Under the pieces are notes generated by a model. The model saw only the letters and a program-made list of their open reading frames with translations. It had not been told where the DNA came from and searched no databases. Positions 7,714 through 48,286 of a stretch of DNA of 64,000 bases are shown piece after piece. Source of the DNA: Amoebophrya sp. A120 (Eukaryota; Protista; Dinoflagellata); contig CAJINV010000016.1 in NCBI GenBank assembly GCA_905178155.1, positions 897,386 to 961,385 of the forward strand, given 5' to 3'. The stretch's first letter is position 1, and each line of letters starts with the position of its first letter. Position numbers and translations under genes: made by a program.

Positions 7714-8725
7714 ATGGCGACCTTGTCCCGGAACATCATGCTCTCCATATCAATACCAGGCCAACCAAATTATATCCTTCCGGAGCTCATCACGACTGCA
7801 TTGGCAGCAACATCCGGGCGGGCGGAGATGTTTCTGACGATCCCGACGCGGGGGATATGCGACCCCTTGCAGGACAACAGAAGGGGGGTCACATCCTGAT
7901 CTCAAGGTTTCGGGCACGACCCAAGAAGATGACCACAGAAGATGATTCCGGAGGACGGTTTTGTTGATGAAGCGCTCGTGCACATTATCCTATGTAAAAC
8001 CGTCCCCACCCAAAAGTTGTAATGCAAATCTGCATGCTGAAAATGTTTCTCATGCGGAGCCCCATGGTAGCCATTTTCAAATGCTATCTGGTAGTTTGTC
8101 ATGCTGGAATCACGATAAGGTAGCCAATTTGTCATGCCGCTGCACCAGCTAAACAGGATTACACTACGAACCCGATAAACTTGTCATGCTTGACAGCCAA
8201 AACTTGGGGATTTGTGTTGCAGATTTGACAGCTTGACTATACAGAGGGTGGGGACGTTTTTACTCAGGATACACATCGCTTGCGAGCAGAACATTTTCCC
8301 CACTACCTCGCCGAAAACCAAGAGGAAACGCTTCCTGAAGGTGCATGAAACCTTCATGCAAATCTATGAAGAGGCAGAAGGTACAGGGCCTGGAAGAAGT
8401 GCTTCTGCAGTGTCTTTTTGCTTGACAGTAGTTCGTTGCGTCTTCAAGTACAGAAGAAGTGCCAATGATGAATGTCAACGTTGTACATGTTGAGGACAAC
8501 TAATACAGTCGCTTTTGTCGTGTGCATGTTGAGTATACTAGTCTACTCAACATCTTGTCTCATGCTTTTCAAGCGCTCATCATCTAAATCTTTCTCACAA
8601 CTACAGGTGACAGCAGCCAAATCAACAGCGTGCGAGAGACGTACAGTGCGAGTTTATCGAAAGGGAAATCCGTCGGGGGCACACCGCTTCTTCACACCGA
8701 AAATTTATTGCTTCGCTATCATTAG
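7714..8725 (+). CDS. Hypothetical protein exons, possibly the 5' part of the 8811-14138 gene
   Basis: Removing element 7986-8271 gives MIPEDGFVDEALVH|IACEQNIFP. A GT-AG intron is plausible at 8381-8606. Links up- and downstream are unresolved. Confidence 0.4.
7986..8271. mobile_element. Introner, family D (TIR taaaa.cgtccccaccc)
   Basis: TAT...ATA ends, inverted repeats, direct repeat CACAT. Confidence 0.9.
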
Positions 8726-8810
8726 TATCTATGCAGAATCAGTAGCACTAGCTGTGCATGATGCCGCCTATGAGGGACTGCTGGGAGGTATGTTTTGACA
8801 CGCCAAAAGA

Positions 8811-11800
8811 ATGTACTGTGAGTCCAGAGGTGATAAGGAAGTAGCAGGAGGTAAATTAATAAATCGTATATTCTCGCGGTCGCGGTCGTGGTGCGGATGT
8901 AGTCGCTCGCATTTTTCCCTTGCAGACTCTGCACTGCAAAAGCGGTGGGAGCAGCTCCAGGTTATTACCAAGACGGTGCCGGACCAGTTTGTCTGTATTG
9001 GTACGATCCCAGTTGTGACATCGGCGACCACGGCCTCCGTCGCTGCGGCAGGCTCTTCCTCGACTTCTGCCTCTTCCCCGGTGGTCAGCAGCCCCATCAT
9101 TCGCGTCACCACGCCGCCGTTCTACAGCACGAGGAATAACAATTTGAACCCGCAAAATAGTTTTGGCACGACCTCTACCTCGACCTCCAGTCGGGCGCCG
9201 AGCGCAGCGGCTGCGTCCTCGTCCACCTCGCCCCGGAAAAATTCACCACCGGAACAAGGGGGCCGTGTGCGTTTGGGAGCAGGCTCACCAACTTTTCCAA
9301 ACGCGGCAGTTGCACCAGCAGGAGGACCAGCAGCCGCAAATATGACCGCGAAGGAGCAGTACAGCTCGACGGGAGCGGCCCGCGCCAGGGTGGAGCGCGA
9401 AGTGCACGCGGTGGGATGCAGTGGGGGAGGTGGGAGCAGTGGCAGCAGCAGCTCTTCAAGTTCTACTACTACAGCTGGTGGCAAGAAATACAACACCAAT
9501 AATTATCCACCGAACAAACCACCACCGCTCGTTGCCAACAAGGGTGCGGAACCCATGACGCAGGCGGAATTCCTGGACGCGAATGCGTACGATATAACTC
9601 CTGCTCTTGGTTCAGCTAGGTCCTCAAATCCCTCATCTTCGAAAGAGATAGTACACAGATGTACTAGCCCGTCATCCAGCACGACAACGAGAGGACTCGA
9701 CACATCATCATCATCGGCGGCAAGTTCTTCCAGCAGCAGCTCTAGCTCATCCAGTGCTCCTGCGGGCGAGGGAGAAAATATTACAGAGTCAAAAAAAGGA
9801 ACATCATCTTCTTCATCTTCACCCGGAGGTCGTCGGGAAGATGCGTCAACCATCCCAAGGACACCGCCCACGCCCCCGTTGCCTGAAACAAATATTAAAC
9901 TATCGCACCTTGCAAATAATAATATTAACCGAGATCATCGAGACAAGGCACTGCACCAGCAGTCGGCGCAACAGCTAGGGACCACCACGACGAGCAAGAT
10001 CTTGACCAGAAACAAAACGCGGCGACGCAGAAAATCTTCCGCGGCAAGAACACAGCTGCTGCAGCAAAACCCGGGAAGTCATCTGAGCTCCCTGAACAGT
10101 TCCGCAGTGCTGGAAAGCTCGGACGAGGACGGAGAGATAAAGCCGCTGGACATGTCCGAAGTGAAAGCTAGCATCGGAAGGGCCATGAGACACAAACAGG
10201 GCATAGTTGGGGGTTCCTACGGGACAAGCAGTTCGCCCGAGGACGGGGATGATGTACTGACTTTTGAACGTCTGTTTCATCCGTGTTGCAAAATAGAACG
10301 CACGTATTCGTATGAATGTAGGTTTTGGCTTTGATGTTGTAACTAATGGACTGCACGAGGGGAAATTGGCATGATGGAATTTGGATTTTTTGCATGTAAA
10401 AAAAAAACAAACTCTAAAAAACTCAGGGCGACGGGGGCGTCTACAACCACCCTCACGGTGGGGGCCACAGTTCCGTCGGGAGTGAGGACGCGGGATACAC
10501 GAGAGAGGCTGAATCTCCGGACCATTTCAACAGTAGCTCCTCGTCGTCCGCTTCCGGCTCAGAAAGTGTCGACCAAAGAAAACCCGTCTTGTTCCGCCCG
10601 CTGGCGCGAGGAGGGAACAAGTCGCCGGCTTCTGCAGCTGGTGGACCTCCACTTCCAGGGGGGATGGGCACAGCGAACAAACGGGTGAACAATAAACAGG
10701 TGAAGCCGTGTAGAAATGTTGTCCTCTCGACGTAACCTAAATTGTGTGGGTACTCATGAATGAGGTATGATCTTCAAATAAATGATATGCGTTCATCTAC
10801 TTGTGACGCGAGCGCGGAAAAGGAGATGCACATATCTTGCATGAAGAACAAGAAGTGCACAGTATGATTACACAGACCTTCTCGCCTACCCCTTCTCTCT
10901 CTGCACCCAAAACAGGCCGCTACGACGCTCCGCGAGGTTTCGGTCACGACCGTGAAGCCGCAGAAGAGAGCGTCTCTTTCCACCTCAGACGCAACAGACA
11001 CCAGCTACGGTGTCTACCCGGGGCCCTCCCCCGGCGTCGCGTCTTTCCGGACCGGTTGCAATTCGGGTCATTATCTCGGTGGTAAATCTTCCCAAGTGTC
11101 TGTGTCATCCTATGGCGTTCTCAAACGTTACATTCTCAAGTGTTACATGAATTTGTGATGCAAGAATGGCAAAAGTCAAAGCAGGGAGGTTGCACCTGTA
11201 GCATTACAAACTCCGCACAGATTTAGGCGCTGTTTAGCCTTTCCAGATTTGTCATGCGAAGTAGCTTCACCCTGTGGATGTTGATCCTCATTTTGCATGA
11301 CAAATTCATGTAACAGCTGAGAATGTAACAGTTGAGAACGCCATACATCCCGTCGCAGCCAGGCCAGCTCGAGCTTTGTGACTGTGGCATCGCCTGGTGG
11401 TGAGAATTCCTCCTCTCCGCTGCTGAGAACGGCAGGACCTGGTCTTGATGGGAGCAGAAGTAGCGGTGTACTTTCAGAAGTCACGAGGAGTGAAAATGAT
11501 AACGGTGGGACCACAACGACAAAGAACGACGCCGCACTTCTAAGGCCCTCTGGTACTTCTAGTGCCTGCTCGTCAAAGCCGCCGAGACTAACTGGCCGCG
11601 AGTCGATCGAGAGCATGAGCTCTTGCCTCTCGAGGGACGAAGAGATGGACGGGAACGACGAAGACGGGGTGGAGCGGGCTAGTGTAGTAGACATCACCGG
11701 AAGTGCTAAAGCTAATGCAGCGGCGGACGATCATGTTGAACTCGACGCCGACCACTCTGGGGTCACTGGATGTAAAAATACACCAACTACCTCAGGCCCT

Positions 11801-14138
11801 GGCGGTAATACAACTACATCGTTGCAGGTGCAGCAGAGCCCAGCCGCCGGTAGTTCAATATCATCTTCGGCTAGTACTAGAAGTGCACAACTTCCAGGTC
11901 GCCCGCCCACGCTGCCAACGAAGAAGAACTCCTCAGCGGCAACAAAATCCGCTCCCTCTGCAAAACTCAGGACGTCAGAGTCTGCAACTTCAGGCACGCA
12001 AGATGATGAACATCAAGTCTCTCCTATTTTATCCGGAGGAGGTTGCACTAGTAGTGCGAGCAATTCTACCTGTTCCGTTCCGTCCCCTACAGGAGCCACT
12101 GCTTCGAAGCAGCACCAGCAGCAGTTTCGAAAACAAAACGTCCCGACTTTCACTGCACCTGCAGCCGGCGCACGACCCGCCGCGAGCTTGACGAGCTCGC
12201 TGCTTTCTCATGCCGCAAGCAGCAGTGCAAGTATGAGCGCCGGGACCACAGCCGCTGGAAATAAAATAGATTTGGTAAATACGCAGCCGGTAATGTTTCC
12301 AGGAACAACAGCCGGTAATAGTAAATTATCCGGTGCAACGTCTACAGCATCGAGGGGTGCAGCTAGTGGTCACAGCTCCTCCGGGTCGCAGAGCTATTCT
12401 TCCGGTAGGTATGCAAAAAAAACCAAATAAAGTTTCGTACTCGTTGTATGTATTCTTGCAGTACAACAGCATGACAGATCCGGTTATAATTCTTGCCTAG
12501 TTCAGCATTTTTACACGTTCTGTTTTTCTTTGTGGAAAAAGTTGCTGCTAATGCCGCTATTTCTACTCAATAGTACGAAAGCGAATACTTTTGCAATGCA
12601 TGATAGGGAAGACGTGGTGATGCGCGGGAACAACAGCAATCACGGAGCCGGAGGTGGCGGTGTAAACTCTTCCTTTTCCTCTAGGTTTTCATCTGATGGT
12701 GCTCCTCGGGGAGGTGGAACAAAAAGCAACACCAGCAAAGCTTCTTCTTCGTTCAAGAACCGACGGGCGAATTTGCTCGATTCGTTAAACACAAGTGATG
12801 AGGATGATGACGATGATAGTCACCCTGCTTTCTCGAGTTCCAATGAGGGCGGGGGCAACTCAAGCACAACGTCGGGCGCAGCGATGGTCGTTGGTGGCTC
12901 CTCTGGTGCGACGTCCTCGACGGCCCACCAACAACATCCTTTCGCGTGGGTCAAGACAGCAGGTTTGACAGGTGGCTGCAACCATTTGGCTGGAGCTGTG
13001 CCGAGCTCCAAACCGGGCGGGACGAGCAAGAGTCACCAAGTTCATCCTGGAACTAGTGGAAGCTTGAGCAGCAGTGGGCGGGCTGTGAACTACAGCAATT
13101 TTAATCACGCAGTAATGTCGACCGGGACCACGCCGGCCGACAGACTGCACGCGATGCAGAGCCGGCAGAGCCAGACGCACGCCGTGAAGGTGATTTTGGA
13201 GAAGAAAAGCTATCAGGAACAGCTGCTCCGATTAAAGCACAACGTGGACAAGGTTTCGAACGAAGACGACTGGAACGACTTAACCGAGGTAGAGCGGGAC
13301 TTCTCGACGAAGCTCGGCTACCAGTTTCTAAGCGTCACCGGGGGAGCTGCTAGTGCTACAACCGCAGGAGCAGGAGCTACTGCAGCACCCTCCGGAGGAG
13401 CCCCCGCCGGTCCTCAAAGTGGTCAGCAGGGCAACAAGAATCCGATAGGCAAAGCCGTTTTCCACTTGCTCAGTGTGCTGATAACGCAGAGTATCCACAG
13501 TAAAGTTCCCGTACACGTACAAATGCAGTCTCTGCATGACAAAACTTGCCTTCAATCCTAGTCCAGCATGACAAGTTGGACTCTGCAAGGTTGCGAAATT
13601 TGTCATGCATTTTGTACATGTGCAGGAAATTTACATTGCATACAGAGTGACATGTACGCTCGGAATGTGGACCAGGACTGGAATCCGGACCGCTTCAACG
13701 TTATGGTAGTGTCAGGATGGAAATCGACAAAGTTGAAATGATTTGTAATGCATAAAATGCATGACCAGGCGTACGTGTGTTGCAGAGCAGGCAAGTGAGC
13801 CCGATTGTAATCCTGTTTGGGGTTAGAGCTCGAGCTGCTAAAGTAGCATGAGAAAACTAGTCTTCTTTGCCTAAACAGCATGACAAACTGGATTTAGACG
13901 GAGCCGAGAGCTGTCATGCACCGCTTAGAAATTGGGCTTCGAACTGGCATCGATTTCATGCATTACAAGTTATTTGTGTAGTGGTTTCGGTCAGTTTAGC
14001 ATTACAAGTTATTTCAACTTTGGCGATTTCAATCCTGACGCTTCCATAAACGTGCACCGGGCATGCATGAAAGCGCGAATCACGTACTATGACGAGATTA
14101 TTCGCAACTACTTAAATGGAGGTAGTGCAGCTGGGTGA
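8811..14138 (+). CDS. Ser/Thr/Gly-rich hypothetical protein with an ordered C-terminal region; multi-exon, start uncertain
   Basis: ORFs 8811-10334, 11378-12430, 12530-13561 and 13932-14138 are joined by GT-AG introns 10254-10426, 10700-10915, 12409-12606 and by elements 11111-11345, 13492-13642, 13702-14048. Ends ...ITQSDMYARNVDQDWNPDRFNVHRACMKARITYYDEIIRNYLNGGSAAG*. Confidence 0.7.
11111..11345. mobile_element. Introner, family G
   Basis: Perfect 14-bp TIR tatggcgttctcaa / ttgagaacgccata, extending imperfectly; direct repeat CATCC. Confidence 0.92.
12410..12602. mobile_element. Decayed family-A introner inside GT-AG intron 12409-12606
   Basis: Residual tatgca...tttcgtactcgt and tagtacga...atacttttgcaatgcatg; repeat GTAGG/ATAGG. 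Confidence 0.7.
13492..13642. mobile_element. Introner, family H
   Basis: tatccacagtaaagttcccgtacacgtacaaa pairs with tttgtacatgtgcaggaaatttacattgcata; direct repeat CAGAG. Confidence 0.88.
13702..14048. mobile_element. Introner, family I
   Basis: ~50-bp imperfect TIR (tatggtagtgtcaggatggaaatcgacaaagttgaaat...); direct repeat AACGT. Confidence 0.9.
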
Positions 14139-19397: not shown

Positions 19398-20696
19398 ATG
19401 CTTCGTTCGTCTCTTCCTCGTTTCATTCTGCGTAAATTTGAGTCCCATTTGCCGACCGTCGCGGAGTCAGCGTTTGTGGCGCCGTCGGCTGACGTGATCG
19501 GGAACGTGAAGCTTGGCGAAAATTCCTCGGTCTGGTACAATTGCGTGCTTCGCGGCGACGTGAACTTCATCGAAATTGGGAAAAATTCTAACGTGCAAGA
19601 TGGCACCGTGATCCACGTGCGGTCGGATTCCCTGGGTGGGAACAAGCCAAATCCCACGATCATTGGCGACAACGTGACCATCGGCCACAGTTGCCTTATC
19701 CACGCGTGCACGCTGGAAAGCAACAGTTTATCCAGGAAAAAAAGATTGTAGGTGTAACTTTCTTGGAGGATTAGCATGACAAATATCTCTCACATGACAC
19801 CAAAAACCTGTCATGCGCAGATAGTACGGGAAAACGCCGCTGAATGGACCCTACAATGCAGGCACAGCATGACAGGCTCAATCAGTTTGCATGTTCCGCA
19901 TCACAAATTTACACTAACAACCTTTTTTTTCTTCAATACAGCTTTGTCGGAATGCAGTCCTGTGTGATGGATTTTGCGCGCATCGAGTCCAACGGGTACC
20001 TCGGCGCGGGGTCCTTACTCCTCAGCGGCAAAGTGATACCAGCGAATGAACTATCCTGAGTAAAAATGTCCCCACACCAGAGTTGTCATGCAGATTTGCG
20101 ATTAGAGGAACGGAAGATTTGTAATGCGCATCTCCATGAGAGGCATTTCCAGTCTCGTTTTGGAATTTGTAATGCTGTAAACGGGATCAGAAGATGGATT
20201 TGTGATGCGGCTGCACTTGCTAAACTGCACTACACTACGGACTGCAATTTGCCATGCGTGGCTCCCAAAGCTTCTGGGTCTGTGTTGCTAAGTTCCCAAC
20301 TTGACTATGGGGTGGGGACGTTTTTACATATGATATCAACTGTGGGCCGGGCGGCCGGCAAAGTTTGTGCGGGAGCTGAAGCCAGAGGAGGTGGAGTTCA
20401 TTCAGAAAAGCGCTCGGGAGTATTATGACAGGTGTGCACAACTCCCCCTCCCCCTCATTTGTCATGCAAAACCCCAAATCCAAGTGCGTCCCTGTTGCAC
20501 TATTTGCATAACAGATTTTTCCGGAAGGCCAAACAGTACTACACTAGGCGCATGAATTTGTCATGCACAGGCTCCACCTGTGGTGGTGTTTGTATTGCTG
20601 TTCATGCCATACACATGAGGGGGAGGGGGGGTTGTGCGCTCTCATAAGTATGCGAAATTTGGCAGCAGACACAAAGTGTCGGTGGAAAGTGAATGA
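19398..20696 (+). CDS. Gamma-class carbonic anhydrase-like protein (left-handed beta-helix), 188 aa; exons 19398-19728, 19944-20051, 20341-20423, 20652-20696
   Basis: Motifs VWYNCVLRGDVN, NVQDGTVIH, VTIGHSCLIHAC and ELWAGRPAKFVREL; the frame is continuous only after removing three non-canonical introns. Confidence 0.93.
19729..19938. mobile_element. Introner, family F
   Basis: TAT...ATA ends; repeat CAGTT/CAGCT; near-identical to the reverse complement of 44347-44555. Confidence 0.92.
20052..20335. mobile_element. Introner, family D
   Basis: tatcctgagtaaaaatgtcccca / ggggacgtttttacatatgata; repeat TGAAC/TCAAC. Confidence 0.9.
20424..20646. mobile_element. Introner, family E (TIR tgcacaactccccctccccctcat)
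   Basis: TAT...ATA ends; direct repeat AGTAT. Confidence 0.9.
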
Positions 20697-22162: not shown

Positions 22163-25100
22163 ATGGGCGATCACTTTGACCTTGTCCGAGGTCCGTCGCG
22201 AGACCAGGTAAGAACCGTATGTGGAGTGGGTTTTTGTGATGTTAGAATTAGATAGACATAGATGAAACTGAAACATTTAAGTACGAAATAACGTTCAAGT
22301 AGACTGGCTTCCCAACGCGGGTCGTGCGGAAATTTGGACAGCATGAAGATTTTCAATCGATGGTGGGTTGATGACGTGACGAAATGTATATTACTTTCTT
22401 ACGCCTGGCGAAAGGAAACAAATTTTACCAAAGCTAAAGCTAAATCTGTTCCCACTCAACGCAGGACCAACTTTCGCCGGACGATCTGGAATATCGAGCC
22501 GTGCTATGAAATGGAGTCGATAATTCAGCTTTTTGATGAAACAAGTCGCGTCTGGGATAACATTAACAACACAACTTGACGCCGACCTCCCTCGCCATGC
22601 GCTGCGCGCAACTTTTTGTAAAAGTGTATAAATGCTGCAAGTGATCATGCATCACCGACGTCATAGGCATGACCGAGAAAGCAGTTTCTCTTTGCTTGAG
22701 GATACTCCATTGTGAACAAGTTTTCGTACTGGTCCGCGCCATCGACTTTATTGAGGAGGACCCTCCGTAGTTGACTCTGCCTGGCGGAGTTGAGACTTCT
22801 TGTATCAAAAAAGCTTCCGGCTTTTGCCACTCTACATTTTCTCGACGGCCTTATTCCGCTCGTTTCGGAGATCATAGACGCTCAGGGCGGATTGTGCAGT
22901 TTGGGCTTTGTCATGAACGACGACAGGGTGAAGGCACAGCTGGCGCGGGTCCCAACCGGCTTCGACAAAAAAATCACGAAGATACTGAGTATAATTTTGA
23001 TTTTGCGGCCCTCCTCGGGGTTTCATACTATTCGTTCGATGCTGATGTGAATATCGCAATTATCGCAAGGATGAAATAAACTGCTGGGAAGATTTAGATT
23101 GTGCATGTTATGATTTCTGTCAAACCGTAAAACAGGATTTTACAACGAGTATTTTGCCATCATTGACAATGGAATGGTTGCCACGAGTACCGGCTTCGAG
23201 ACGGGGAAAGTCGTGTTTAACAATGCGGGCCAGACGGTCGCAGCCAATGCCGCTTCCGTCTCGGGGGAGAACCTGGGCACTGCCATATTGTGAGGAAAAA
23301 TCACCCCCATATTAAAATGCAACTTTGTGATGCTGTTTTGTGGTCACAAATCAGATTTGTCTTGCCGAAAGTGCTTGGCGGTAGTTTCTAACCTGTTCGT
23401 CGGGTATGCAGAAGGCTAGCGATTAGGCATGGCAAACAGATTCGCAGTAGTCGAAAGCGCATGACAGCCTGGCTGCAGTATGCGCCATAAGCATCCTATT
23501 GCCCTATAGGCAAGACAAAGGCGATTTGTGAGCATTAAGCAGCATCAGAAATTTCCATTTTGATATGGGGCGGGGGCATTTTTCCTCACAATATGCCACA
23601 ACCTCGGGCCTATGAACTGCAAAAGTATCGTACTCGTATAAATGCATCACAAATTTCCTCAGCATGAGAAATAAAATTTGTCATGCTAATTTACCTTAAG
23701 AAAAATATTTGTAATGCAAGACTTGCATTTATACGAATACGATACTTTTGCACAGGATAGGGCCCGTCCGGGTACGGGAAGGGAGCCGGTGGAAAGTATC
23801 GCAAGGAAAAATCCCCCCTCCCCATATTGAAGAGGTGAGGTTTCGAGAATTTGTGTTGCTGATTTAAGGTCACAAATCACGTTTGTGCTGCAAGAAGACA
23901 AAGGCAGCAGCTTCCGTCCCATTATGGAGGCGGTTTGTCATGCTGTTGAGCCAACATCACGGACGCTTCTCATGCTAAGCGCCAAAGTCAAAGCCTCTCT
24001 ACTCAGGCTTGATATGGGTCTGCAGTCCTCTCCAGCAAGACAAATGCGATTTGTGTACTCAAATACAGCAACACAAATTTCGCTTTCGATATGGGGAGGG
24101 GGGATTTTTCCTCACAATAGAAAGGGCAGCGGTGGCGCGGGGAAAGGGGGACGCGCACCCGGTGGCGGGAACGAAACCACGGACCAAAAAGCGATACAGG
24201 ACGCTGCAGACCGGCTTTGGAAGTAGAAGAACTTTAGTTTCGTCAATGAATAAGAACTACGTGGTGAACAATAATAGGAGTCTGACTTCTCGAGATGGAG
24301 GACATAGAGTTGTGGTAGGTCCGTCCCGCGAGTGAGGTCGCCCGCGACCGGGCAAAATGGCAGGCCGGAGGGGAGGCGACTTGGCCCAGGAGCCAGGATG
24401 GCAGCGGGCGCACGCAAATACCTCCCGCTGACCTTACCGCGGCGCCAGTGGGTGCGTCCGTTGGTGTTGTAGGGTATTGCGGCTCTTTGGCGATCGCGGG
24501 CGAAGCAACTCGGGGGCGGGGGCTAAGGCCCCCCCTGCGCTAGCTTTTGACTGGGCCCGGGCTTTGGCCCCTGCGCCACCCCGGGTGGGCCGCGCCGCCC
24601 TTTGGGTGGGTCGTTAGAAGTTGCCCGGGCCAGGCCCCCCCGCCGGTTTTTTGTTGCAGAGTGAAAGAACAGCCGCGCGCCGGGGGCCCGGCGCCCGCTG
24701 GCTTTTGCGCGCGAAGCCCGGAGGCTTCTTGCGGCCGGCCGCAAGCGGCAAGCGTCTCTCTGGCCTCCGCGGCCTTGTGCGCAGCGCCCGGCCCAACCCG
24801 AGCGACCGCCCGCGGTCGCCCCAAGGCCCCGGCGGCTATTTCATTCGGGCGGGCTAGGGGGGCTGGTGGTGTTCCATTCCCGCCCCGGCATAGGCGCGGG
24901 CTTCTTTTGTAGCTATGCTCGCTGGGGATGGGGTCCGGAATGGCTCCGGGCGGCTTTGGCCCGCCGCGGCCCAGCGCAGTGAGTGCTTCCGAAAGAAAGT
25001 ATTTCAAGGGGGCGCCGGGTGTTTTCTGCGTTGGCTTTTCATTCTATTGGCTTTGGAAAATTTTGGGAAGGCTTCGGGGAGATATTCGGGAGGCCCCTGC

Positions 25101-27688
25101 CGTGCTCTTTCCAGTTTTTCCAGAAAAAAGAAGAACGGGGGGGCCCGCCTTGCGGCCTCCGCGTTGGTGCGTCTGCCCGGGCCCGCCGCACGGGAGGCGC
25201 GCCCGCATATTGGAGGCGTTGGCCCGCCCCGGGGAAAGGGTGCGCCGCAGAGCGCGGCCAGGGAGGCGGGCCAGTCTGCCCTTTGCCGTCCGAGCCCGCC
25301 CCGGCGGCTTTCGCTTCTGCCCTGCCCTCCGCGCCGCCCCATGGCAGTCTTTTGGCCGGCCTTGTGCTTCGGGGCAGCCAGGCGGCCTGTTGGCCCGCCT
25401 CCGTCCGCCCCGGCGCGCGCCCGTCCATTTCGCCGGGGGCCCCGGGCCTTCGCTCCTTGTATTGCCCGGCCCGTGCGTGTGTCCCACGCACTCGGCGTGC
25501 GGGTGTACCGCCCGCGCCCTAGCCAGAAACTGCCTGCGTGGCGCGCCCCGCCCGCGCGGGCGGGCACGAAAAAGGGGCCGGCCCCAGGACAGGCGTGCGC
25601 GGGCGAAGGGGCCCGCAGGAAGGGTGGCGCCACTTATTTTGCCCACTGGACTGACTGACTTCGCCCGGTCGGTCGCAATGGCGGTGGGCACGCACCCACG
25701 CAGGCAAACCAGCTCGGCGGCCGAACTGCCGGCGAGGGCCCGAGGAGCGATGGAGCAGAGAAGCTGCATGCCGCCGCCCTAATGAGAATGAAGACTGGCA
25801 AAAAGAGCAGGGGCGGGGCCCGCCAAAAGTTGGGCGGCAGTGGGCCTCGGCCTGGGCATCCACCCCATGTGCGCGCCCATGCTATGGGCACCGTTGTGAC
25901 AGCCGGGCGGGTCGTGCCCGGCCTGCCGCGCGCGGCTTTCTCTGGGCCCTCTCGCGTAGTTCGGGTCCAGAGGGGCCGTGGGTCTTGGTCTTGCTTTTCC
26001 TTTATCGGTCGCCGCGCCGCCGTGTCCTACCTGCAGAACATTACTCAATAGGCATAGCCATTATTTAGTCATGACGGCGTGGCACGGGAGTAAAGACCTT
26101 GGAATTAATGCGGGCAGGGTGCCTAACCCGCGGGGGAGAAAACAGTCCAAAGCCCGGGGCGGTTGGATGTGGATCAGGGGCAAATTTTGTGCATGTGCTG
26201 GAAATTTATTGTTGAAATATTTTTGAAAAGCTTTGCGCGGTCCGTTTGTAGGGTAGCTTTGCCTTTGCCATCGCGTCGCCTTATAGCTTTGTCTTTTGTC
26301 GCCGCATTCCCGACATCGCACTACCATGAGGATTGAGTATATTCCGCATGGAAAACTCGCGCAAATTGTTAAAGAGCACCATACCGCCGCGATTGGGGTT
26401 TTTCTGATTTTTCGGTTTTCGGTTTTGGGTTTTATATAGCAAAATCTCCTCCCTGGTCCTCCCTACCCTGGGACCCGGGATTCTATAAACTCTTCTGATA
26501 TGAGTCTGCCTTCTCGAGATGGAGGACATAGAGTTGTGGTAGCTGTGCTTATTCAATATCGGTACTAAATTTGTCAAATCGGACTTACCACGTGCACGTC
26601 GACAAGATTCTTGTGAAACCCGACAACAGTGCCGTCTTCGACATTGCCGACGAGGACAAATTTGCGGCCGCGATTGGCGAGGTGAATTACGTGCGAAAGA
26701 AGCTCTGGGAAAAGGGCATTCTGCACCTCCCAACCCCCGACTCCCTCGGCGCTGGCGCCTTGGGCGGGGCCGGGGGGACCAACCACGACGGCGGTATCGG
26801 GCACATTCCTTTCGCCGGCAACGTCACCCACCTAGTACCCGGCGCAGCTGGTGGAGGTGCGCCCGCCCCAGGTTGTGGTGGCGGCGGGGGAATAAATAGC
26901 AAGGCCGTCTCCGCCGCCGCCCCCGGCTTTGGAAACCCCACCGCGCCGGGAGGAGCAGGAGCTCCGGGGCTAGGGGGGCCCGCAGCCGCGAACAACAACA
27001 GCTGTACCTACGCCGCGGCGCCCGGATTCGGGCCCGCACCGGGTTTCGCCGCAAACAGCCAGCATAACAGCTACGGGTCGAGTTCCTACAACCATCATGG
27101 CCCGAACACAACCAGTCCGAACGTGGTCAATAACAGTGCTTGTTACGACCAGCACGGGTATAATAACACCTCCACAGCTGCGCATCTTTCCGGTAGTACT
27201 TCGCACCACACCACCACAGCGAGCGCGGCGCACAGCAGCAACAATCCCCCACTGTCGCTCGAGAAAAGAGACGGCCGCATGGCGGTTTTAGGGCAGGCGT
27301 GTGTGGACTTCTTGGCGCAGTGTCCGGAGAAAACGGTACTGATGCAGCACTTGAGCTCTGACCCACAGATCACGGAGCTGAAGCGCGGTGTGGTGGCGAA
27401 GTTTGAAAAATGGATCAAGCAAAACGAGCATGTGTTTCGGCTAAAGGAGGTGCATCAGGGGGGCACGGTAAGTAATATTTGGTGATGTCTACTATAGATA
27501 GTTGTTGATCCTTCCATGTTGAAAGCGAATTTAAGCAGCAGTTCTATACTGTACAATTTTTTTCTTCACATAAAAATCAGGTAAAAACGTACATCAACCT
27601 GCACTTGGAGCCCAATGAGAACGGCGAGATGATATTTCCCTCGGCAGTGAGTGGCCTGCACCCCTGTGCCTCGGTGGCGGGTTGTTAA
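22163..27688 (+). CDS. Gly-rich hypothetical protein with possible winged-helix/LOTUS-like segments; exons 22163-22207, 22465-22504, 22842-22988, 23136-23285, 23599-23610, 23765-23796, 24125-24222, 26579-27467, 27581-27688
   Basis: Reconstructed continuous frame MGDHFDLVRGPSRDQ|DQLSPDDLEYRAVL|DGLIPLVSEIIDAQGG...KIL|RFYNEYFAIIDNG...GTA|TTSG|PSGYGKGAGGK|GSGG...DRLW|NRTYHVHVDK...QGGT|VKTYINL. The domain call is resemblance only. Confidence 0.65.
22505..22841. mobile_element. Decayed IR-bounded non-canonical intron
   Basis: Starts TAT; agctttttgatgaaacaagtc pairs with gacttcttgtatcaaaaaagct; ATA end and direct repeat are lost; removal gives EYRAVL-DGLIPL. Confidence 0.55.
23286..23593. mobile_element. 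Introner, family C (TIR aaaaatcccccctccccatat)
   Basis: tattgtgaggaaaaat / atttttcctcacaata; direct repeat TGCCA. Confidence 0.9.
23611..23759. mobile_element. Introner, family A
   Basis: TAT...ATA ends; direct repeat GGGCC. Confidence 0.92.
23797..24119. mobile_element. Introner, family C
   Basis: TAT...ATA ends; direct repeat GAAAG. Confidence 0.92.
24278..26542. other. GC-rich island 2, bounded by a 41-bp direct repeat
   Basis: gagtctg(a/c)cttctcgagatggaggacatagagttgtggtag at 24278-24318 and 26502-26542 (one mismatch); 75% GC in sampled line 25201-25260. Confidence 0.85.
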
Positions 27689-28603: not shown

Positions 28604-29900
28604 ATGGCCCGGGTAAGTGGAGCTGCTCCTTTTGGCCTCGATGTACTTGAAGCAGACCTGCAGCATTGGCGGGGTGAAGAAGCCTATAGCGCGGCGACGT
28701 TTGTGGACCTCAACAACGTGGAATCGCCGCAGAACAACAAGAACCGTGGCTCAGCAGCCAGCCGTAGGTCCCCCTCACCGAGAAGGGGCGCAAAACTGAC
28801 CCTGTCCCGCGAAATTGCCCAATACGAGGTGCTATGCATTGCAAAAGCGTCGTACTAGTATAAAGTGCATGTTGACAAATTTGCTCAAGAACAAAAAAAT
28901 GCAATTTGTAGTGCTGTTTTCCCTTAGAAAGTAGATCTGTCATGCATGGCTGCAATTAGTACGAGTGCGATACTTTTGCACTGGATAGGTGCCGCCGCAC
29001 TTGCGGGTGCAGAGTATGGATGAGCAATTTTTGCTCGAGAAAAAGTACCTCGATCTGTACAAACAGAAGCTGGAAAAAGAGATAAAACGGGAGGAATCTT
29101 TGCAGAAAAAGGTAGTACACATATCAATGCTTTTCAGCCGTTGCGGACGTTTTTCTTTTTGCATTATTGTTTTCCGTCATAGCGATAGGGATAGAAGTAC
29201 TTACAAGTAGTAGAGGACGTGTAGTGTACCAGTGAGGGTGGAACAGGCTGTGCACAATGAATTTGAATACACAATCGACCACACGCCCCAGCCGGCGAAC
29301 GAGAAGCAATCCTCCCTGATGCAAGAGCTTCGCTCCTGGCGGGAGAAGCAGAAGGAGCAGATCCAGAAGGAGACGGAGGAGAGAGACAAAAAATTGTCCG
29401 ACATGCAGGAAATCACACAGGCGACGGAGCATATCGCACGAAAAAACTGTTTCATCACTGTGAACTTGTGATGCATAGAGTTGAAGACTGAAACTAGTTG
29501 TCTTGCTACATCTGCAAGACATCGGATTTTTCATCAGCGTGTTTTCCCCTTGGGAAGCGCGCATAGCAGGTTTTCTGTGTCATGTGTAACGAACTTGTGA
29601 TGCAGATCTTGCAAAATCATCACAGAGAGACAGTTTTTTTGTGGGATAGAGCAGGAATGTCGCAAATTTTTGAAAAAATACGACTGGGACGTCAAAATTG
29701 CGTGTGAACAATATTTATGCATTGCAAAAGTATCGTACTAGTATAAATTGCATCACAAATCTTAGCAAGAAGAAAAGTGGAATTTGTAATGCTGTTTTAC
29801 CTTTAGGAAGGAGATTTGTCATGCATATTTGCAATTAGTACGACTACGATACTTTTGCACAGGATAATATTTCAATGGCGAGGATGTCAGCGGGTCGTGA
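28604..29900 (+). CDS. Coiled-coil protein with a C-terminal UBA-like domain; exons ~28604-28832, 28993-29111, 29238-29431, 29654-29715, 29872-29900
   Basis: Reconstructed C-terminus KLSDMQEITQATEQECRKFLKKYDWDVKIACEQYFNG fits the UBA-like (TAP-C/UBA_4) pattern. Confidence 0.75.
28833..28987. mobile_element. Introner, family A (also readable as GT-AG intron 28829-28988)
   Basis: TAT...ATA ends; direct repeat GGTGC. Confidence 0.92.
29432..29648. mobile_element. Introner, diverged family F
   Basis: tatcgcacgaaaaaactgt / acagtttttttgtgggata; direct repeat GAGCA. Confidence 0.88.
29716..29866. mobile_element. Introner, family A
   Basis: TAT...ATA ends; direct repeat ATATT. Confidence 0.92.
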
Positions 29901-33722: not shown

Positions 33723-36700
33723 TTGCACTTGCATATCCTGTCGACTCCCAACATCCACACGGACCAAACGTCCATTCTGGCGTCGCAAACTCCCACGCCA
33801 AATCTGAACAACGAGGAGGACAATTTGCAGCTGAAAATAAATAACCAGGACGAAACAAGCATGCTGGAACAAACCGGCGGGACCCGGGTCGCGCAGCCGA
33901 TCTACAACCTGGATCCAAACCAGATGAAAAAGATCGAGCAAGCCGTGCATGGGCAGTTGTTGGTGACCAGTGGCGCGGCTAATGCTGGCGGGAACAATGG
34001 AAGCAGTGGCGGCGGTAATAATCTTCAGCAACAAGGCGGCGGTGGATCATCGCAGCCGGGAATGGCGCATTTGCCCCCAGTACGATTTCCGATCATACTT
34101 GGACAATAAATACTTAAATCGATGCTTGCTTATTGGTCATGATTTCCTTTCCAAGTACGTGGTGTTGATGACAAGACATAAAGCAGGAGATGATCATCAG
34201 GGCGTTCTTTGATGTGAGGCGTCCTCATGAGCACAGCTTCCACATAAAATGACCCAGGGCCAATCCATGAGCAGCATGTCGACTGCCAGCGCTCTGGGAA
34301 ACGCGCACCCAAGCAACCATTCTCTGTCCGAGATGCTGATGAGTATCAGCGGCGGTGGTCATCATCTGCAAGTCTCGCAGCAGGGAGGTGGTGGTCAACA
34401 TCTGCAGCATCAAAACGGCACTGTTGTCCCCGGTCAGACGACAAATCCAGGCCTGGTGTCAACCTCGACGTCCATTCAGGACCTGCAGAGCTTGCTGCCC
34501 GGTACTACGATAGTCGCGTTTTCATGCATGCATGATCTCGTTCTCAGCCTTTATTTACTTGTTCGGTTCGTCAAGCAGCATGTGAAATCATGATACGTTT
34601 TGTGACAAATCAGGCTCCACCAACCGGTCTAGTCAGAACTTGCAAGCGCTCCAGCAGCAATCACCCGGGAATCCGGAACAGATGCAGAGGGCGCTCCGGG
34701 ATCTCATGGACAGCGCACAAGGGGGATACAACAACCGACAGGTATTTAATATTTTTGAGAGGCAGTTTCTGTACAAGTACAACCGACGAGAATGTTGTAG
34801 ATGATACGCAAACAGAAGAGTACAACATTGGTAAAGTCATACCATACGAAGAAATCGACAAAATTAAAATCAGAACCTCAACCTCTCCCCCCAACCGCAA
34901 ACCTCGCCGACGACCGCGGATCAGCTGCAATCGAACTCCCAGCTCTTGCAGCAACTGCAGCAAGGCTTGGTGGGACAGCAACTTCGCCTGGCGAACCACG
35001 GCAACATCAATGCAGGCGACAGTCAGCAGCACCAGTTGCAACAGCACTCACTACAGCACCACAACCCGCAGCAATTATTTGTTTTTGACCAGAACTCGCA
35101 GAAAATGATGCCTCTGGTGCGAAACAACGCTGGTGGAGTGGTGCAGATCGGGATATGCATTGCCAATGTGTCTGGGTGGTCTCCTGGAAGGATGTTGCCA
35201 GTTTTTCCATGCTTGTCCTCTGGCATGACTGACGAGTTTGTGATGGTGCGTGTCGTGTCAAAGAAATTCTTCTGCATTCTGATTCTTTTTCTTCCAGACT
35301 TAGACATGTTTCCATTCAATACGGGAATACTCTGTACAATTTATCGGCTTCGGGCAACAATTATGCACTGCAAAAGCATCGTACTCGTATAAATGCATTA
35401 CAAATTTCCTCAGCATGAGAAAGAAAATTTGTAATGCTGATTTGCCTTGACAAAGAAATTTGTATATGCAAGACTTGCATTTGTACGAGTACGATACTTT
35501 TGCACAGGATAACAATCTGTTGAACCAATCGTCCGGCACACCGAGTTATGCATTGCAAAAGCATCGTACTGGGTAGTAATTGCATTACAAATTTGCTTTA
35601 GCATCACAAGTGAAATTTGTAATGCGGTTTTACCTTAGGAAGGAGATTTGTCATGCATAAGTAACTGCAATCACTACGAGTGCGATACTTTTGCAGAGCA
35701 TACGAGTTCCTCCTCCCAGGATCTCGTCGGCTTGGTCCAGCAGCACCAGCAGCATATGCGTTGCAAATATGTCTGCGTCTGGAAGGTTGGAACCTGTCAT
35801 GCTAAATCTGAATCATGTAAAAATCTGTGTTGCGTGATTACCCAAAGCTGCCCACTTGTGACCTAATCGAGATGCAGTTTCTCATGCAGAATAGGCATCG
35901 TAAAACTATCATAGAATCTGTTATGCTATGTCCTACATACCAGACCTCATGGGTCATGGACAACCTGCGTGACAAGTCTGGCACTCTTCCAGACCCAGAC
36001 ATACTGGCAGTTGATACAGCAGAACTCGAATTCCAACCACAATCTGTTGAACCTCTCGCAGCAGAGCGGAGGTACTACTAGCGGGGGGCACCCGCACCAC
36101 CAGCAGCAGTTTCACCTTGGAACCAACGCGCAGGGGCAGCTGACTCTGATGGCGACGACGCCAGGGACGAGTAATTCTCTGCATCACCAGCACAATTCTA
36201 CTTCGGGGAACAACATTTTGAACTCTTCTGGGGGTGGTACTAACACTTCAGCATCCGGGGGTGGTCTTCATCAGCACGCGCAACTCTCTTCTGGCCTGCA
36301 GTCGCTGCAGAACAGTAACGAGAATATGCAAAATTTGCTGTTGCAAAGCGGACCGGACGGACAGCTAGTGTTGCAGCATCAGACGAGCGGATTGAGTTCG
36401 ACTCACCCCGGAAATAACGCGGGTGCGCACCACCAGCATCATCAAGGGACGACCACCACTACTGTGAATAGCCACTGGATTCCCACCTCCAGACCCATCA
36501 TTCTCCGCACCGGGGGGGTCGGGCAGAGCGAGCACGTGGTCCAGAGCACCGCGGGGTTAGGTGGAGGGGGTGGGACAACGACAACAAATCATCACGGGTC
36601 CTCCGCGGGGAATAGTAATCTACTTTCCTATCACTCCAGTTCTTCCCCCGAAGACCAACTGTACAGTAGCTCGTTTCACCATCAACACCAGCACACTTAT

Positions 36701-39700
36701 CAAAAGTAAAAATGTCTGGGTCTGGAAACTTGTGATGCTGGGTGGCGTCTCATGATGAGGCTACAAATGCTGGCTCAGCATGACAAGTTTCTGAGCTCCT
36801 AGGTGTTGCCTATTCTGCATGACAAACTGCGCTTCTGCATCACAGAAAAACGAAGCTCTTGGGTAACTTGCATGACAGATTTAAGAGTCATGCCAGACAA
36901 GAATGACAAACATGAATTCTTCCAGACCCAGACATTTTTACAGTTGATAACACTGCAGCAGCTGCGATTGACCACCAGAACCGGGTGATATTACAGCAAC
37001 AATTCAAGAACAAAGAGTTTATCTATCAAATGCAAAAATGTCTGGGTCTGGAAGATTGCCAGGCTTGTCCTCATGCAGTTTTTCCAAGCTCCCCCACGTC
37101 TGGAATGCAGGGCCTAGCATTACAGGTTCTGCAGCTCCTTGGTGATGCGTATTCTGCATGAGAAATCGACTCACAGCATGGCCAGAAGTGGGCACCTTTT
37201 GCACGTTATGCGTCACAGATCTTTGTAGGATCCGAAACACGCATCACAAGTTCGGAGCCTTCCAGACCCAGACATTTTTGCATTTCATATTATCGGGAAC
37301 GCGACAATTTTACCGCCGGGCGCCATCAGTCGGGCGAACTCGTTGCAGAACAAGGGGAATTACACACCTGGTGCGGGTGGTGGAGCGGCTGCGGTATGGA
37401 ACGAAAAAACTGTGTCAGTGTAGGTGTCTTCGGGTCGTGACAGCATGACAAATTTTTTCTGCATGACACAGAAATCCTGTCATGCAGAATTAGTACGGGA
37501 AAACTAAACACCTGCGCCATAGGACTACTTCATGGCTAGCTAGCATGACCAGTGTAACAGTGTTGCATGCTTTGCATGACAGACTTACACTTACACAGTT
37601 TTTTTCTTGCATATGCGGGGTCTTCGTCGTACCAGCACGCGGGCGCGATCCACTTGGACGACTTGTATCATAGCGGTAGCAAAGGACCGGGCGCTCCTGG
37701 TTCTGCGCAGCATCACATGCACGTCGAGCACTCGTTTCCCCAGCCACCGAGCCCGAAGGGAGCAGCTGCGTATAATAATCTTCGGAAAAGCAGCGGGGGA
37801 GGAAAGCACGCGTATAAAAATGCAAGCGACCCCCGGAACAACGGGGATCAAGTTCAAGATTTCCGAGATGAGTTGTGGGAGAGTCGAAACAGCGATCAAC
37901 AGCAGCCGAACCAGCAAAGTGGTCGAAAGAGCCGAGGAAAGAAGGGGAACAGAAAGGATTCAGGTTCCAAGGGCAATTCGCGGGGCTCTCGCAACGAACC
38001 CCGAAGCTCGGTCGAACAGGACCAGCTGGATTTCGACGTGGACAATGATGCAGACTGGCCGGCAGTAATTCTGCCCGGAAAGCAAGACCCCTCGACGACT
38101 CGGGGATCTTCATCGGGCGGAAAGCAAGGGATGAAGCCCGGTGCGTTTCAGCATCTGGAGCACGATCCGTACTACTTTCACACCAACCCGGTTTTCGAGC
38201 AATTCTATGACTGGGAAAGGCTCGAGCAGATGCGCGCGATACAACAGCAGCAGGGTGCAGCTGGGACGGGCACGGGTGGTACTTCTGCAGGACAGTACCC
38301 AGGTACTAGTTCAGCCGCAGCCGGAGGTAATTTTCAAAATCATGTCGCGCACCACGCGCCGTTACCGCCGGTGCCACCCCCGGCCATGGTTCCGCCGTAT
38401 CACGGTGGTGCTCCTGGAGTAGACCTCGCCTATGGGTTCGCGCCGGGGACAAGAACCACGAGCGGTGGGAGAGGTTACGGAAAGTCCGGCCCGGACCCCC
38501 TGATGGATCGAAAAGGAAGCACGAGTAAGCAGGGAGCTGCTGACGGGGGGAAAAATAACTCTCGTGGAGGTTCCAAAGGTGGTGGTGGGGGGCCGCCGCC
38601 CAATCGGAACCGGAAAGGCAGCGGTGGCGGCAAGCAGGGCGGATCAACATCTTTTGGTGCGAACCAGGACGGTGTCGGTGGAACAAGATCCTCAAGCAGC
38701 TCCTCTTCTTCCGCCCGAAATAGTACAACCGGACCGCTGCCGAAACTAGGAAACAACGAGTTGCTCCACCAACGGAGCAGCGGGTCCAGCAAGGACAACA
38801 AAAGCGATGGACATGGTCGCAATCATTCGAAGAAACAAGGAAGAGTACAACTACATGAAGGCTCGGGTTCCCGCCGGGACAACTCGAAGCGCGAGTCGAA
38901 GATGTCCAGTTTGGACACATATGCATTGCAAATATGTCTGGGTCTGGAAGAATGGAAGTTTGTCATGCTTGTCTCTCATGACTCCTAAGTCTGTGATGCA
39001 TGAGCAGGATGAGAGTCCCTTTCCTGTCATGCAAAAACACAGCTTGCCATGCAGAACTCGCAACACATAGCAGCTCAAGAACTTGTCATGCTTGGCTGCG
39101 TATTGCAGTGTGTCCACCATTCCCAAGCCAGCATCACAAGTTTCCAGACCCAGACATGTTTGTATTTGATAACGCAAACGGTGGTGATCAAGATCATATC
39201 ATCGACGCGGCACAGGGGAATGTGAACGGACGGAGGGTCACACACCATCGGGGCATTGAGTAAATTAATACTTTACTTCTACTGTTTCTCTTTGTCTTTC
39301 TCATGCGACAAACTTTTTCTCTTTCTCATGCGGGATCGGATCGATTGATTCCTATCACAATGACTCAATGTGAAAATCCTAAAAAGGTACAAGCACAACA
39401 AAGTGCCCCGCAACAAGGATCTCCTGGCGGAATACGGCCAGACGCTGTCCGAAAAACCCATCACGACGCTGATGATCCGGAATATTCCCAACCGGTACAC
39501 GCAACCCCAATTTGTTCTATGCATTGCAAATATTTCTGGGTCTGGAAACTTGTGATGCAAGAAAGGGAATAGTGAGCGCACTGTGATGCGCTGCTCAGCA
39601 TGACAAGTTTTTCCGTGGTTCTGAGTTGCGTACTCCGCATGAGAAACTGCGTTTTTGCATGACAGAGAAGAGGAGCTCTTCGCGGCCATGCAATACTTAC

Positions 39701-47000: not shown

Positions 47001-48286
47001 TGGCTGCGGTGCCTTTCTGCAATACAGAGCTGATTTGTTTACCCAAATTCAGCATCAGAAATTTCGTTTTGATATGGGGAGGGGGGATTTTTCCTTGCCA
47101 TAGTCACAAGAAAACCAGCGAAGATCTTCCTCTTCCTGAAGATGATCCTGAGCAGAACGATCATACAAACTGCGACAACGTGACGAGGCCAGAAAGCGAC
47201 CTCCAACCCCTCGGCTTTATACGGCTCGTTCTTTCCCTCAACACGCCGCAAAACCCGTTTTCCACCACCGACGTTAATGTGCTAAAACTGATATGGGAGT
47301 CGTGCACAACTCCCCGTCTTCGCCCCAGTTGCATGCACAGTACCAAGAAGTTCGCCCCTTGTATCTTCGCATGACGGGTTGTTCTTCTTGCAGCCCCAGC
47401 CGCACTGCGATTCTCTGTGGATACTTAATTTCATTATTGTCATGCAAAATTCGCATTCATTCTATCTTGCCGACGTGGTTTCTATATATCGCTGTTCTAA
47501 ACTTCACGACTAGAACATGAGGGGAAGAACGAGCAGTTCTGTGCCTTTTCATAACTGAACCACGAAATAGTGAACACGTACCTTCCTCCGGTGCTGGAAA
47601 TCTCCCCGCAGGAGCGCCAGTACGTGGAGCAGGTGAAGAGGTTCGGCCAGGCTGCGCAGAACTCCGGCGGCAGCACTTTGTCCGACTTCTTTCTAAAGTG
47701 CAAAGCCTGCAGTCGGGCCTTCACGAGCAAGCACCGCGCGATTTTGAAGGCGGTGCTGGAGAAGATGAAGCACGCGAACCCTCTGGGCTTCTTGTACAAC
47801 GAATTGCTGTCGGAAATGCAAAAGAACAAGGGGGTCCAACAGAGCGCGCTAGACCGGATCTTGCGGGAGTTGCAGGAGCAGCAGCTGATCATCCAGTCGA
47901 ACCCGGAGCAAACCGGGCAGCGGGTGAAGTTGAATGTATGCATTGCAAATATATATGTCCTCTGAGTCTGGAAAGTAGTGGGAACTAAGTTGTAGTGCTA
48001 GGTTGGCATCCTGGGAAATCTGTATTGCATAACCAACATTTGTCATGCAAAAACGCAGTTTGATGTTCTCATGCGGACTGCCTAGGAGAGAGCGCTCCGG
48101 AAAGTTGTCATGCTGGGCTCCTCCTGCATTTGGAAGCGTCATGCACATTGTAGCATCACAAGTTTCCAGACATCCAGGGATAATATTTGCACCTGATAGA
48201 ACTGCGGAACGGAGTACTTGAAGCAGAAATACGAGGAGATGCTGGAACTTTTCTCGGCCGGAGTAGACGGGGACGACGGTGACTAG
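44033..48286 (+). CDS. ORC2: Origin recognition complex subunit 2-like (divergent)
   Basis: ORC2-like motifs in the expected order: NLCVSGLGSKYAMLRRF, ILLVVHCYE, IRLVLSLN, VNTYLPPVLE, C-terminal LDRILRELQEQQLI; 5 introners plus GT-AG introns 44637-44816 and 46277-46457. Confidence 0.72.
44347..44555. mobile_element. Introner, family F (inverted relative to 19729-19938)
   Basis: TAT...ATA ends; direct repeat CGAGA. Confidence 0.93.
45937..46197. mobile_element. Introner, family B
   Basis: TAT...ATA ends; direct repeat GAAAG. Confidence 0.92.
46779..47102. mobile_element. Introner, family C
   Basis: TAT...ATA ends; direct repeat GTCAC; interior similar to 23797-24119 and 61130-61456. Confidence 0.92.
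47292..47553. mobile_element. Introner, family E (diverged)
   Basis: tatgggagtcgtgcacaactcccc ... catgaggggaag...gtgccttttcata; direct repeat ACTGA. Confidence 0.82.
47937..48198. mobile_element. Introner, family B (diverged)
   Basis: TAT...ATA ends; repeat GAATG/GAACT. Confidence 0.85.

What the first reader, a model, noticed from the sequence alone, without database searches (positions are those of the whole stretch)
12405..12607. Introner caught converting into a canonical GT-AG intron
Seen: the target repeat GTAGG/ATAGG plus the first T of the element creates AG|GT...AG|G, i.e. intron 12409-12606 (198 nt, in frame). The family-A TIRs here are heavily eroded and the terminal ATA has become ATG. 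The copy at 28833-28987 (repeat GGTGC) also has GT-AG ends but intact TIRs, consistent with an earlier stage. Inference: once canonical ends exist, selection on the TIR and TAT/ATA signals is released.
Basis: partly seen in the sequence, partly recalled or inferred. Interest (0 to 1): 0.7.

Follow-up and report, generated by a model that had tools for sequence, protein, structure and literature searches.

The report
Aged mobile intron with GT-AG ends
This is a worn-down copy of an already described mobile intron of the marine parasite Amoebophrya, whose flanking repeat happens to give it ordinary GT-AG ends; its decay likely reflects age rather than a switch to ordinary splicing.

Summary
12410-12602 is a heavily diverged family-A TAT...ATA introner with a GTAGG/ATAGG repeat, and 12409-12606 is a 198-nt GT-AG intron. 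The window is Amoebophrya sp. A120 DNA. The deposited protein reads across exactly this removal, and a contig from a probable RNA run breaks at the predicted place.

The GT-AG letters are shared by both repeat copies, so they likely date from insertion. Such ends occur at chance rate: 2 of 37 in the window, 8 of 104 in related contigs. The whole element has decayed, not only its TIRs. Among 151 related copies, GT-AG-compatible ones score no lower at the TIRs (p=0.89) and have 0 of 9 changed termini against 9 of 142. Two similarly eroded window elements are removed in deposited models without any GT-AG option.

The test was small and biased toward intact copies, so release of selection stays open (about 25%). 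Farhat 2021 already reports introner-type ends on 15% of canonical A120 introns. No earlier scan finding matched all search words.

The parts
12405..12409 (+). left copy of the 5-nt target-site duplication (GTAGG); its last G is intron base +1 in the GT-AG reading
12410..12602 (-). eroded family-A introner (193 nt against about 150), reversed relative to the family profile; many small insertions throughout
12410..12449 (+). 5' TIR relic: TAT + 7 nt + AAA kept, about 8-nt A-rich insertion behind it
   Evidence: (end score 13.5; most copies score 35-51)
12561..12602 (+). 3' TIR relic with two insertions (7 and 4 nt) and terminal ATG for ATA
   Evidence: end score 32.0
12603..12607 (+). right copy of the target-site duplication (ATAGG), one mismatch; supplies the AG acceptor
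12409..12606 (+). 198-nt phase-2 GT-AG intron = element + one duplication copy
11351..12408 (+). upstream coding exon of the 1355-aa Ser/Gly-rich A120 protein P0001 (no Pfam family)
12607..13491 (+). downstream coding exon of P0001
28833..28987 (+). less diverged family-A copy, repeat GGTGC, GT-AG at 28829-28988 in another register (cut before repeat position 2); no RNA or gene-model check obtained
35154..35321 (+). comparator: heavily diverged introner (21 bits) with no GT-AG option, removed exactly in deposited model P0002
47292..47553 (+). comparator: heavily diverged introner (35 bits) with no GT-AG option, removed exactly in deposited model P0003

Best explanation
This is a heavily diverged, likely old copy of an Amoebophrya A120 TAT...ATA introner that likely had GT-AG ends from the moment it inserted, because its 5-nt target ended in AGG; it is removed as 198 nt in the deposited gene model, and its decay likely reflects age rather than release by canonical ends. 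Shown: family membership, duplication geometry, exact removal in the model, element-wide divergence, and chance-level frequency of such ends. Inferred: insertion by DNA transposition with a 5-nt staggered cut; removal by the same machinery that removes the other, non-canonical copies, probably helped by the surviving terminal stem (positions 1-6 and 11-13) and possibly by the GT-AG; slow drift of everything else.
For: TIRs and interior are equally diverged (ratio 0.93). GT-AG-compatible repeats occur at chance rate: 2 of 37 against 1.7 expected, 8 of 104 against 5.2 (P=0.15), 8 of 108 against 9.1 on either strand. Compatible copies in related contigs have TIR scores of 44.0 (n=8, plus 1 of unresolved strand at 47.3) against 41.3 for the 138 non-compatible copies; p=0.82-0.89 against all 142 others. 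Changed termini: 0 of 9 against 9 of 142, including the same ATA-to-ATG change in L001, which has no GT-AG. L072 has the identical GTAGG repeat with intact TIRs. Eroded copies without GT-AG exist: L049, L135, L138 and L154 at 32-63 bits, and window 35154 and 47292, which deposited models remove exactly. Deposited models pass over in-frame but inexact GT-AG pairs in 5 of 5 other elements they cover (8655, 35547, 39518, 45937, 47937). The focal acceptor is TAG, whereas 10 of 11 ordinary introns checked in the window end in CAG.
Against: This copy has the weakest end-to-end duplex of 37 window elements (-14.4 kcal/mol). With flanks its ends do not pair with each other in the minimum-energy fold (z -1.58, against -3.54 for 28833). 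Its TIR divergence is 2.8 SD above the regression on interior divergence, and the 9 compatible copies in related contigs lie slightly above it (p=0.055). The two eroded non-canonical window elements keep perfect TAT/ATA and a perfect duplication; this one does not. L050 has lost its left terminus and has a GT-AG pair that leaves an open frame; L035 has an AG only in the intronic repeat copy and 0 predicted end pairs. The related sample was ascertained on one intact TIR, so copies as eroded as this one were mostly missed. My arithmetic on Farhat's figures (15% of about 23,300 canonical introns against 29,850 non-canonical elements) gives about 10% canonical, above the roughly 5% chance rate, though the definitions differ.
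Confidence: 0.6

Rival explanations
1. Release by canonical ends: copies born with GT-AG are recognised without their TIRs, so TIRs, termini and duplication drift freely and the element fades into an ordinary intron. In its strongest form, the ATA|G to ATG|A change was favoured because it removed a competing TAG just upstream of the acceptor.
For: Weakest end duplex in the window. Residual +2.8 SD and class trend p=0.055. Terminus and duplication both changed here but not in the eroded non-canonical 35154 and 47292. The GT-AG register here (cut before repeat position 5) agrees with the register 4-5 implied by two mismatched duplications in deposited models (38920, 47937). L050 and L035 anecdotes. 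An ancestral ATA+GTAGG would have read TAGTAG (inference).
Against: No class difference on profile score, end pairing or terminal changes. Non-canonical L049 (z 3.45) and L154 (z 2.15) deviate about as much. Models ignore nearby in-frame GT-AG in 5 of 5 cases. The focal copy was chosen for this coincidence, so it is no test. In Fritillaria one spliceosome removes both intron kinds (10.1101/2025.08.15.670264, passage), so there may be no separate pathway to switch to. The ancestral repeat letter (G or A) is unknown: no orthologue was found.
Confidence: 0.27
2. GT-AG is only nominal: the intron is cut at another position inside the repeat (for example GG-TA or TA-GG) by the hairpin-associated route, giving the same mRNA.
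For: Cut positions 2-6 give identical mRNA (one search lists the ends). The core end motif and 9 of 13 in-register pairs survive. A120 splices 65% of validated introns non-canonically and U1 snRNA was not found (PMC7789003).
Against: Register 5 lies within the register implied by two other elements, and the donor GTA matches 10 of 11 ordinary donors checked in the window.
Confidence: 0.11
3. A pre-existing canonical intron that resembles family A by chance, or into which a fragment inserted.
For: The low score (32 bits) and the absence of an orthologue to show an empty site.
Against: Alignment over nearly the whole profile, E 2.9e-9, with no such hit on reversed sequence; intron length equals element plus exactly one 5-nt repeat; a 4-of-5 duplication sits at the predicted place.
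Confidence: 0.02

Closest known systems
Amoebophrya sp. A120 introner elements (Farhat et al. 2021, PMC7789003; passages, sections 11 and 16, supplement passages seen; figures not seen)
   Same: Same organism. Inverted repeat starting TAT + 7 nt + AAA, direct repeat overlapping the exon/intron boundary. The paper reports this organisation in 15% of canonical A120 introns.
   Different: This copy is far more eroded and ends in ATG. In the text I saw, the paper does not compare decay between canonical and non-canonical copies.
Euglenid 'intermediate' introns, for example hsp90 intron 9 of E. agilis ACOI 323 (Milanowski et al. 2016, PMC4770533; abstract and section 9 seen)
   Same: A structured non-conventional intron with canonical-type ends, proposed as a route of type conversion; also not shown there.
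   Different: There one strain among homologous introns has the AG end; here the ends come from the target duplication and no homologous sites were available.
Micromonas-type introners that co-opt the TSD as a splice site (as reviewed in PMC11282704, passages seen; the Huff et al. 2016 paper itself not read)
   Same: A splice site supplied by the target-site duplication, with exact restoration of the exon.
   Different: In the review's Micromonas example the element brings the donor and co-opts the acceptor; here both G+T and AG arise only in the roughly 5% of copies with a suitable target.
Fungal introner-like elements degenerating into regular introns (PMC4457414, abstract only)
   Same: Repeated introns lose family similarity with age.
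   Different: That ILEs are canonical from birth and lack TIRs is recalled, not checked; no non-canonical class is involved there.

Membership tests
Amoebophrya A120 introner element | lies in the A120 genome and interrupts a gene as an intron | tested here: met
   P0001 (A120, 100% identity) reads across the 198-nt removal; the X3 contig breaks at 12405
Amoebophrya A120 introner element | repeated: belongs to a multi-copy family | tested here: met
   family-A profile hit E 2.9e-9 over positions 2-139 of 150
Amoebophrya A120 introner element | terminal motif TAT + 7 nt + AAA at both ends | tested here: inconclusive
   met at the 5' end; the 3' end reads CAT + 7 nt + AAA on the reverse strand, one change
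Amoebophrya A120 introner element | 8-20 nt inverted repeat joining the ends | tested here: inconclusive
   6 contiguous in-register pairs (one G.U) plus 3; ends not paired in the flanked minimum-energy fold
Amoebophrya A120 introner element | 3-5 nt direct repeat overlapping the boundaries | tested here: met
   GTAGG/ATAGG, 4 of 5 identical
Canonical U2-type intron | GT-AG ends in a register that restores the frame | tested here: met
   12409-12606
Canonical U2-type intron | cut is actually made at the GT and the AG | not testable with these tools
   five cut positions give the same mRNA; lariat reads are needed
Canonical U2-type intron | 3' end like ordinary A120 introns (CAG) | tested here: not met
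   TAG here; CAG in 10 of 11 ordinary introns checked
Intermediate or converting intron (euglenid sense) | both canonical ends and structure of the non-conventional class | tested here: met
Intermediate or converting intron (euglenid sense) | structure decays faster once canonical ends are present | tested here: inconclusive
   p=0.89, 0.81 and 0.97 against; p=0.055 for; 8-9 copies, biased sample
Intermediate or converting intron (euglenid sense) | homologous site in a relative shows the earlier state | tested here: inconclusive
   no orthologous protein found and no fetched locus hit this element or its flanks at E 1e-10

The most novel reading that the evidence does not exclude
In Amoebophrya the roughly 5-10% of introners whose target duplication gives GT-AG in the working splice register escape the need for terminal pairing and fade into ordinary introns, making them a standing source of the genome's canonical introns. 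This copy, and L050, which lost a whole terminus yet keeps a GT-AG pair with an open frame, would be late stages.
Probability: 0.25. Interest if true: 0.55.

Novelty: already known. Interest (0 to 1): 0.24.

Why it matters
The element class, and its occurrence with canonical ends, are published, and this intron is already removed in the deposited gene model. One eroded copy adds little. If the release idea held genome-wide, it would show that terminal pairing is what non-canonical Amoebophrya introns are spliced by (an open question in PMC7789003) and give a measurable route from structured non-canonical to ordinary introns, proposed but not shown in euglenids. A useful by-product: mismatched target duplications can map the hidden cut position (two cases here point to position 4-5).

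Tried and rejected
No whole genome was available and the fetched loci could not be extended, so there was no genome-wide test. One search listed no holder on record as RNA; this is no evidence either way. The raw-read RNA run X10 laid only 95 reads, 93 of them partly, on repeat ends, so it gave no junction. No direct junction table for 12408/12607 was obtained: the joint list was filled by paralogous element ends. Alternative splices: a donor at 12405 with acceptor 12606 (202 nt) breaks the frame; 12405-12611 (207 nt, in frame) fits neither P0001 nor the contig break. An alternative boundary with the element ending at ATA 12605 was rejected because the family end aligns at 12602. Orthologue searches returned only A120's own protein; Pfam found nothing. 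TIR-like stretches seen by eye in GT-AG introns 10254-10426, 10700-10915 and 8381-8606 gave no hit with 20 family profiles. L125 first looked like a canonical copy that had lost a TIR, but its flank scores as coding on the other strand and the repeat match may be chance. Rows dropped: of 213 profile hits, 182 had full extent, 179 after removing duplicates; 19 related-contig copies with under 50 bits or more than 2 repeat mismatches were left out and read by eye. Predicted end-pair counts are noisy (0.6 for 47292 despite 8 in-register pairs). Paper searches showed no test of TIR decay against canonical ends in Amoebophrya; Roy et al. 2023 (Curr Biol) and Henriet et al. 2019 did not come up as papers in these searches and were not read. 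Look-ups in earlier scan notes gave nothing on this genome.

Full report
What is there. The window holds at least 37 elements of 149-347 nt that begin TAT and end ATA, most with a perfect 5-nt target duplication. Protein searches name the organism: P0001 and P0002 are 'unnamed protein product [Amoebophrya sp. A120]', 100% identical to window frames. The elements match the published A120 introners: TAT, seven variable bases, then AAA, with 3-5 nt direct repeats; the same paper finds that organisation in 15% of canonical A120 introns (PMC7789003, section 11).

The observation. GTAGG 12405-12409, element 12410-12602, ATAGG 12603-12607 and a 198-nt GT-AG intron at 12409-12606 are all as described. 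A profile from 101 clean family-A copies aligns over positions 2-139 of 150, E 2.9e-9, 32 bits against 109-139 for the 7 other window copies. A contig of run X1 covers 11320-12630 with no difference; X1 may be the source of the assembly, so this is not independent.

Splicing. The deposited protein reads SSGR|EDVV, which is the 198-nt removal. In run X3 (RNA is the tool's guess) a contig that resumes just after the introner at 11111-11345 leaves the genome at 12405 with 30 letters left. The tool places joints leftmost (3479|3744, 4909|5039), and 12405|12604 is the leftmost form of this skip. The second side was not displayed, so this is strong but indirect. Because four repeat letters are shared, cuts before repeat positions 2 to 6 give the same mRNA: RNA-seq cannot show that GT and AG are the bases used.

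Were the ends gained? G12409, A12605 and G12606 lie in the part of the repeat that both copies share, and T12410 is the element's fixed first base. So the ends likely existed at insertion. For TAT...ATA elements, targets GGTNN, AGGTN, NAGGT and NNAGG give GT-AG. Observed: 2 of 37 in the window (1.7 expected, P=0.52) and 8 of 104 strand-resolved copies in related contigs (5.2 expected, P=0.15); 8 of 108 on either strand against 9.1. The 28833 copy is therefore a less diverged independent insertion, not a stage of the same process. It also uses a different register. Two mismatched duplications inside deposited models place the cut after position 3 (38920, Thr kept) and before position 5 (47937, Cys kept). 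If the register is shared, it fits the focal copy (5) but not 28833 (2). That is two gene-model cases, and the paper calls the position variable.

They carry the same families at roughly 70-93% identity, and none hit this element or its flanks at E 1e-10. Of 179 distinct profile hits, 151 from these loci had a recognisable duplication and at least 50 bits; the 19 left out were read by eye. Strand was called by a codon model (5 of 9 window controls called, all correctly). Worst-end TIR score: 44.0 for 8 sense-compatible copies and 47.3 for one of unresolved strand, against 41.3 for 138 non-compatible copies; p=0.82-0.89 against all 142 others. Changed terminal triplets: 0 of 9 against 9 of 142; L001 has the same ATG end without GT-AG. 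End duplex energy and predicted end pairs showed no deficit (8 against 96 copies, p=0.81 and 0.97). Against my reading: measured to the nearest relative and corrected for interior divergence, the 9 compatible copies lie slightly high (p=0.055 against 149), and the focal copy is at +2.8 SD. But two non-canonical copies not caught by the search pattern deviate about as much (L049 +3.45, L154 +2.15), which suggests that much of the apparent TIR conservation in the rest comes from how they were found. The sample required one intact TIR, so it is weak exactly where the hypothesis predicts most.

Within the window, which has no such bias, three elements score lowest against their family profiles: this one (35 bits), 35154-35321 (21) and 47292-47553 (35) (different profiles, so only roughly comparable). 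The latter two have no in-frame GT-AG within 9 nt of their ends, and deposited models remove them exactly. Heavy erosion therefore does not need canonical ends. In 5 of 5 other elements covered by models where an in-frame but inexact GT-AG pair is on offer, the model uses the duplication-exact removal instead. These are annotations that the paper says were built from transcripts; I did not see the reads.

State of this copy. It has the weakest end duplex in the window (-14.4 kcal/mol), and with flanks its two ends fold with internal partners, unlike 28833. Yet divergence is even along it (0.23 and 0.33 at the ends, 0.30 inside), positions 1-6 and 11-13 still pair, and ATG still pairs U.G. Its donor GTA is typical; its TAG acceptor is not (CAG in 10 of 11 ordinary introns checked). 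If the ancestral target was GTAGG, the end read TAGTAG and the upstream AG has been lost; if it was ATAGG, it never had one. No orthologue settles this.

Mechanism and comparison. Most likely an old non-autonomous DNA-transposon-like insertion, born with GT-AG by luck of target, still removed exactly and drifting with age. Splice sites taken from target duplications are known for introners (review PMC11282704, passages). Conversion of a structured non-conventional intron was proposed for euglenids (PMC4770533, section 9). In Fritillaria the U2 spliceosome handles both kinds (10.1101/2025.08.15.670264, passages), and A120 lacks detectable U1 snRNA, so two separate pathways are themselves unproven. 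Seven searches showed no published class comparison for Amoebophrya; subscription papers and the supplementary figures of PMC7789003 were not seen and may bear on this.

Verdict. A real feature of a known kind, already treated as an intron in the deposited model. The conversion reading is unproven (about 25%) but cheaply testable on the full genome. Interest 0.24.

Noticed in passing
window 38915-39176 and 47932-48203: Mismatched target duplications inside deposited models keep the left letter at position 3 (38920) and the right letter at position 5 (47937), pointing to a cut before position 4 or 5; a genome-wide way to map the hidden splice register.
   Followed up: partly
window 8655-8926: Eroded TAT...AGA element with no recognisable duplication; in-frame GT-AG options exist (274 and 280 nt), but model P0001 removes 277 nt non-canonically.
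   Followed up: partly
window 45932-46202, 23792-24124: GAAAG targets offer an in-frame GT...TAG intron 3 nt shorter than the exact removal; P0003 uses the exact removal at 45937; 23797 was not checked.
   Followed up: partly
L050:390-533: Family-A copy whose left terminus and duplication are gone; it now starts with a GT from inside the TIR and has two in-frame AG acceptors leaving an open frame. Best candidate seen for a real conversion, but the true frame is uncertain.
   Followed up: partly
L035, L112, L140: Single-mismatch duplications where the letter that makes GT or AG sits only in the copy that would be intronic (3 of 29 strand-resolved single-mismatch cases in related contigs); significance not tested.
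   Followed up: no
window 19729-19938 and 44347-44555: Two copies 96% identical over 201 nt; 19729 has an altered end and a duplication mismatch (CAGTT/CAGCT).
   Followed up: no
window 12405-12410: A consensus-like donor (GTAGGT) 4 nt upstream of the used one is not used in the model.
   Followed up: partly
window 12547-12573: An insertion has created a CTAAT branch-point-like motif followed by an in-frame TAG at 12571-12573; use not tested.
   Followed up: no
window 24500-26300: GC-rich (0.67) gene-poor stretch unlike the rest of the window; not examined.
   Followed up: no
window 58519-62591: AAA-ATPase-like gene (Walker motifs in the translation) split by the introner at 61130-61456 with a CATTT/GATTT duplication.
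   Followed up: no
L059, L098: The same unrelated insert interrupts family-A copies at about the same position in two loci.
   Followed up: no
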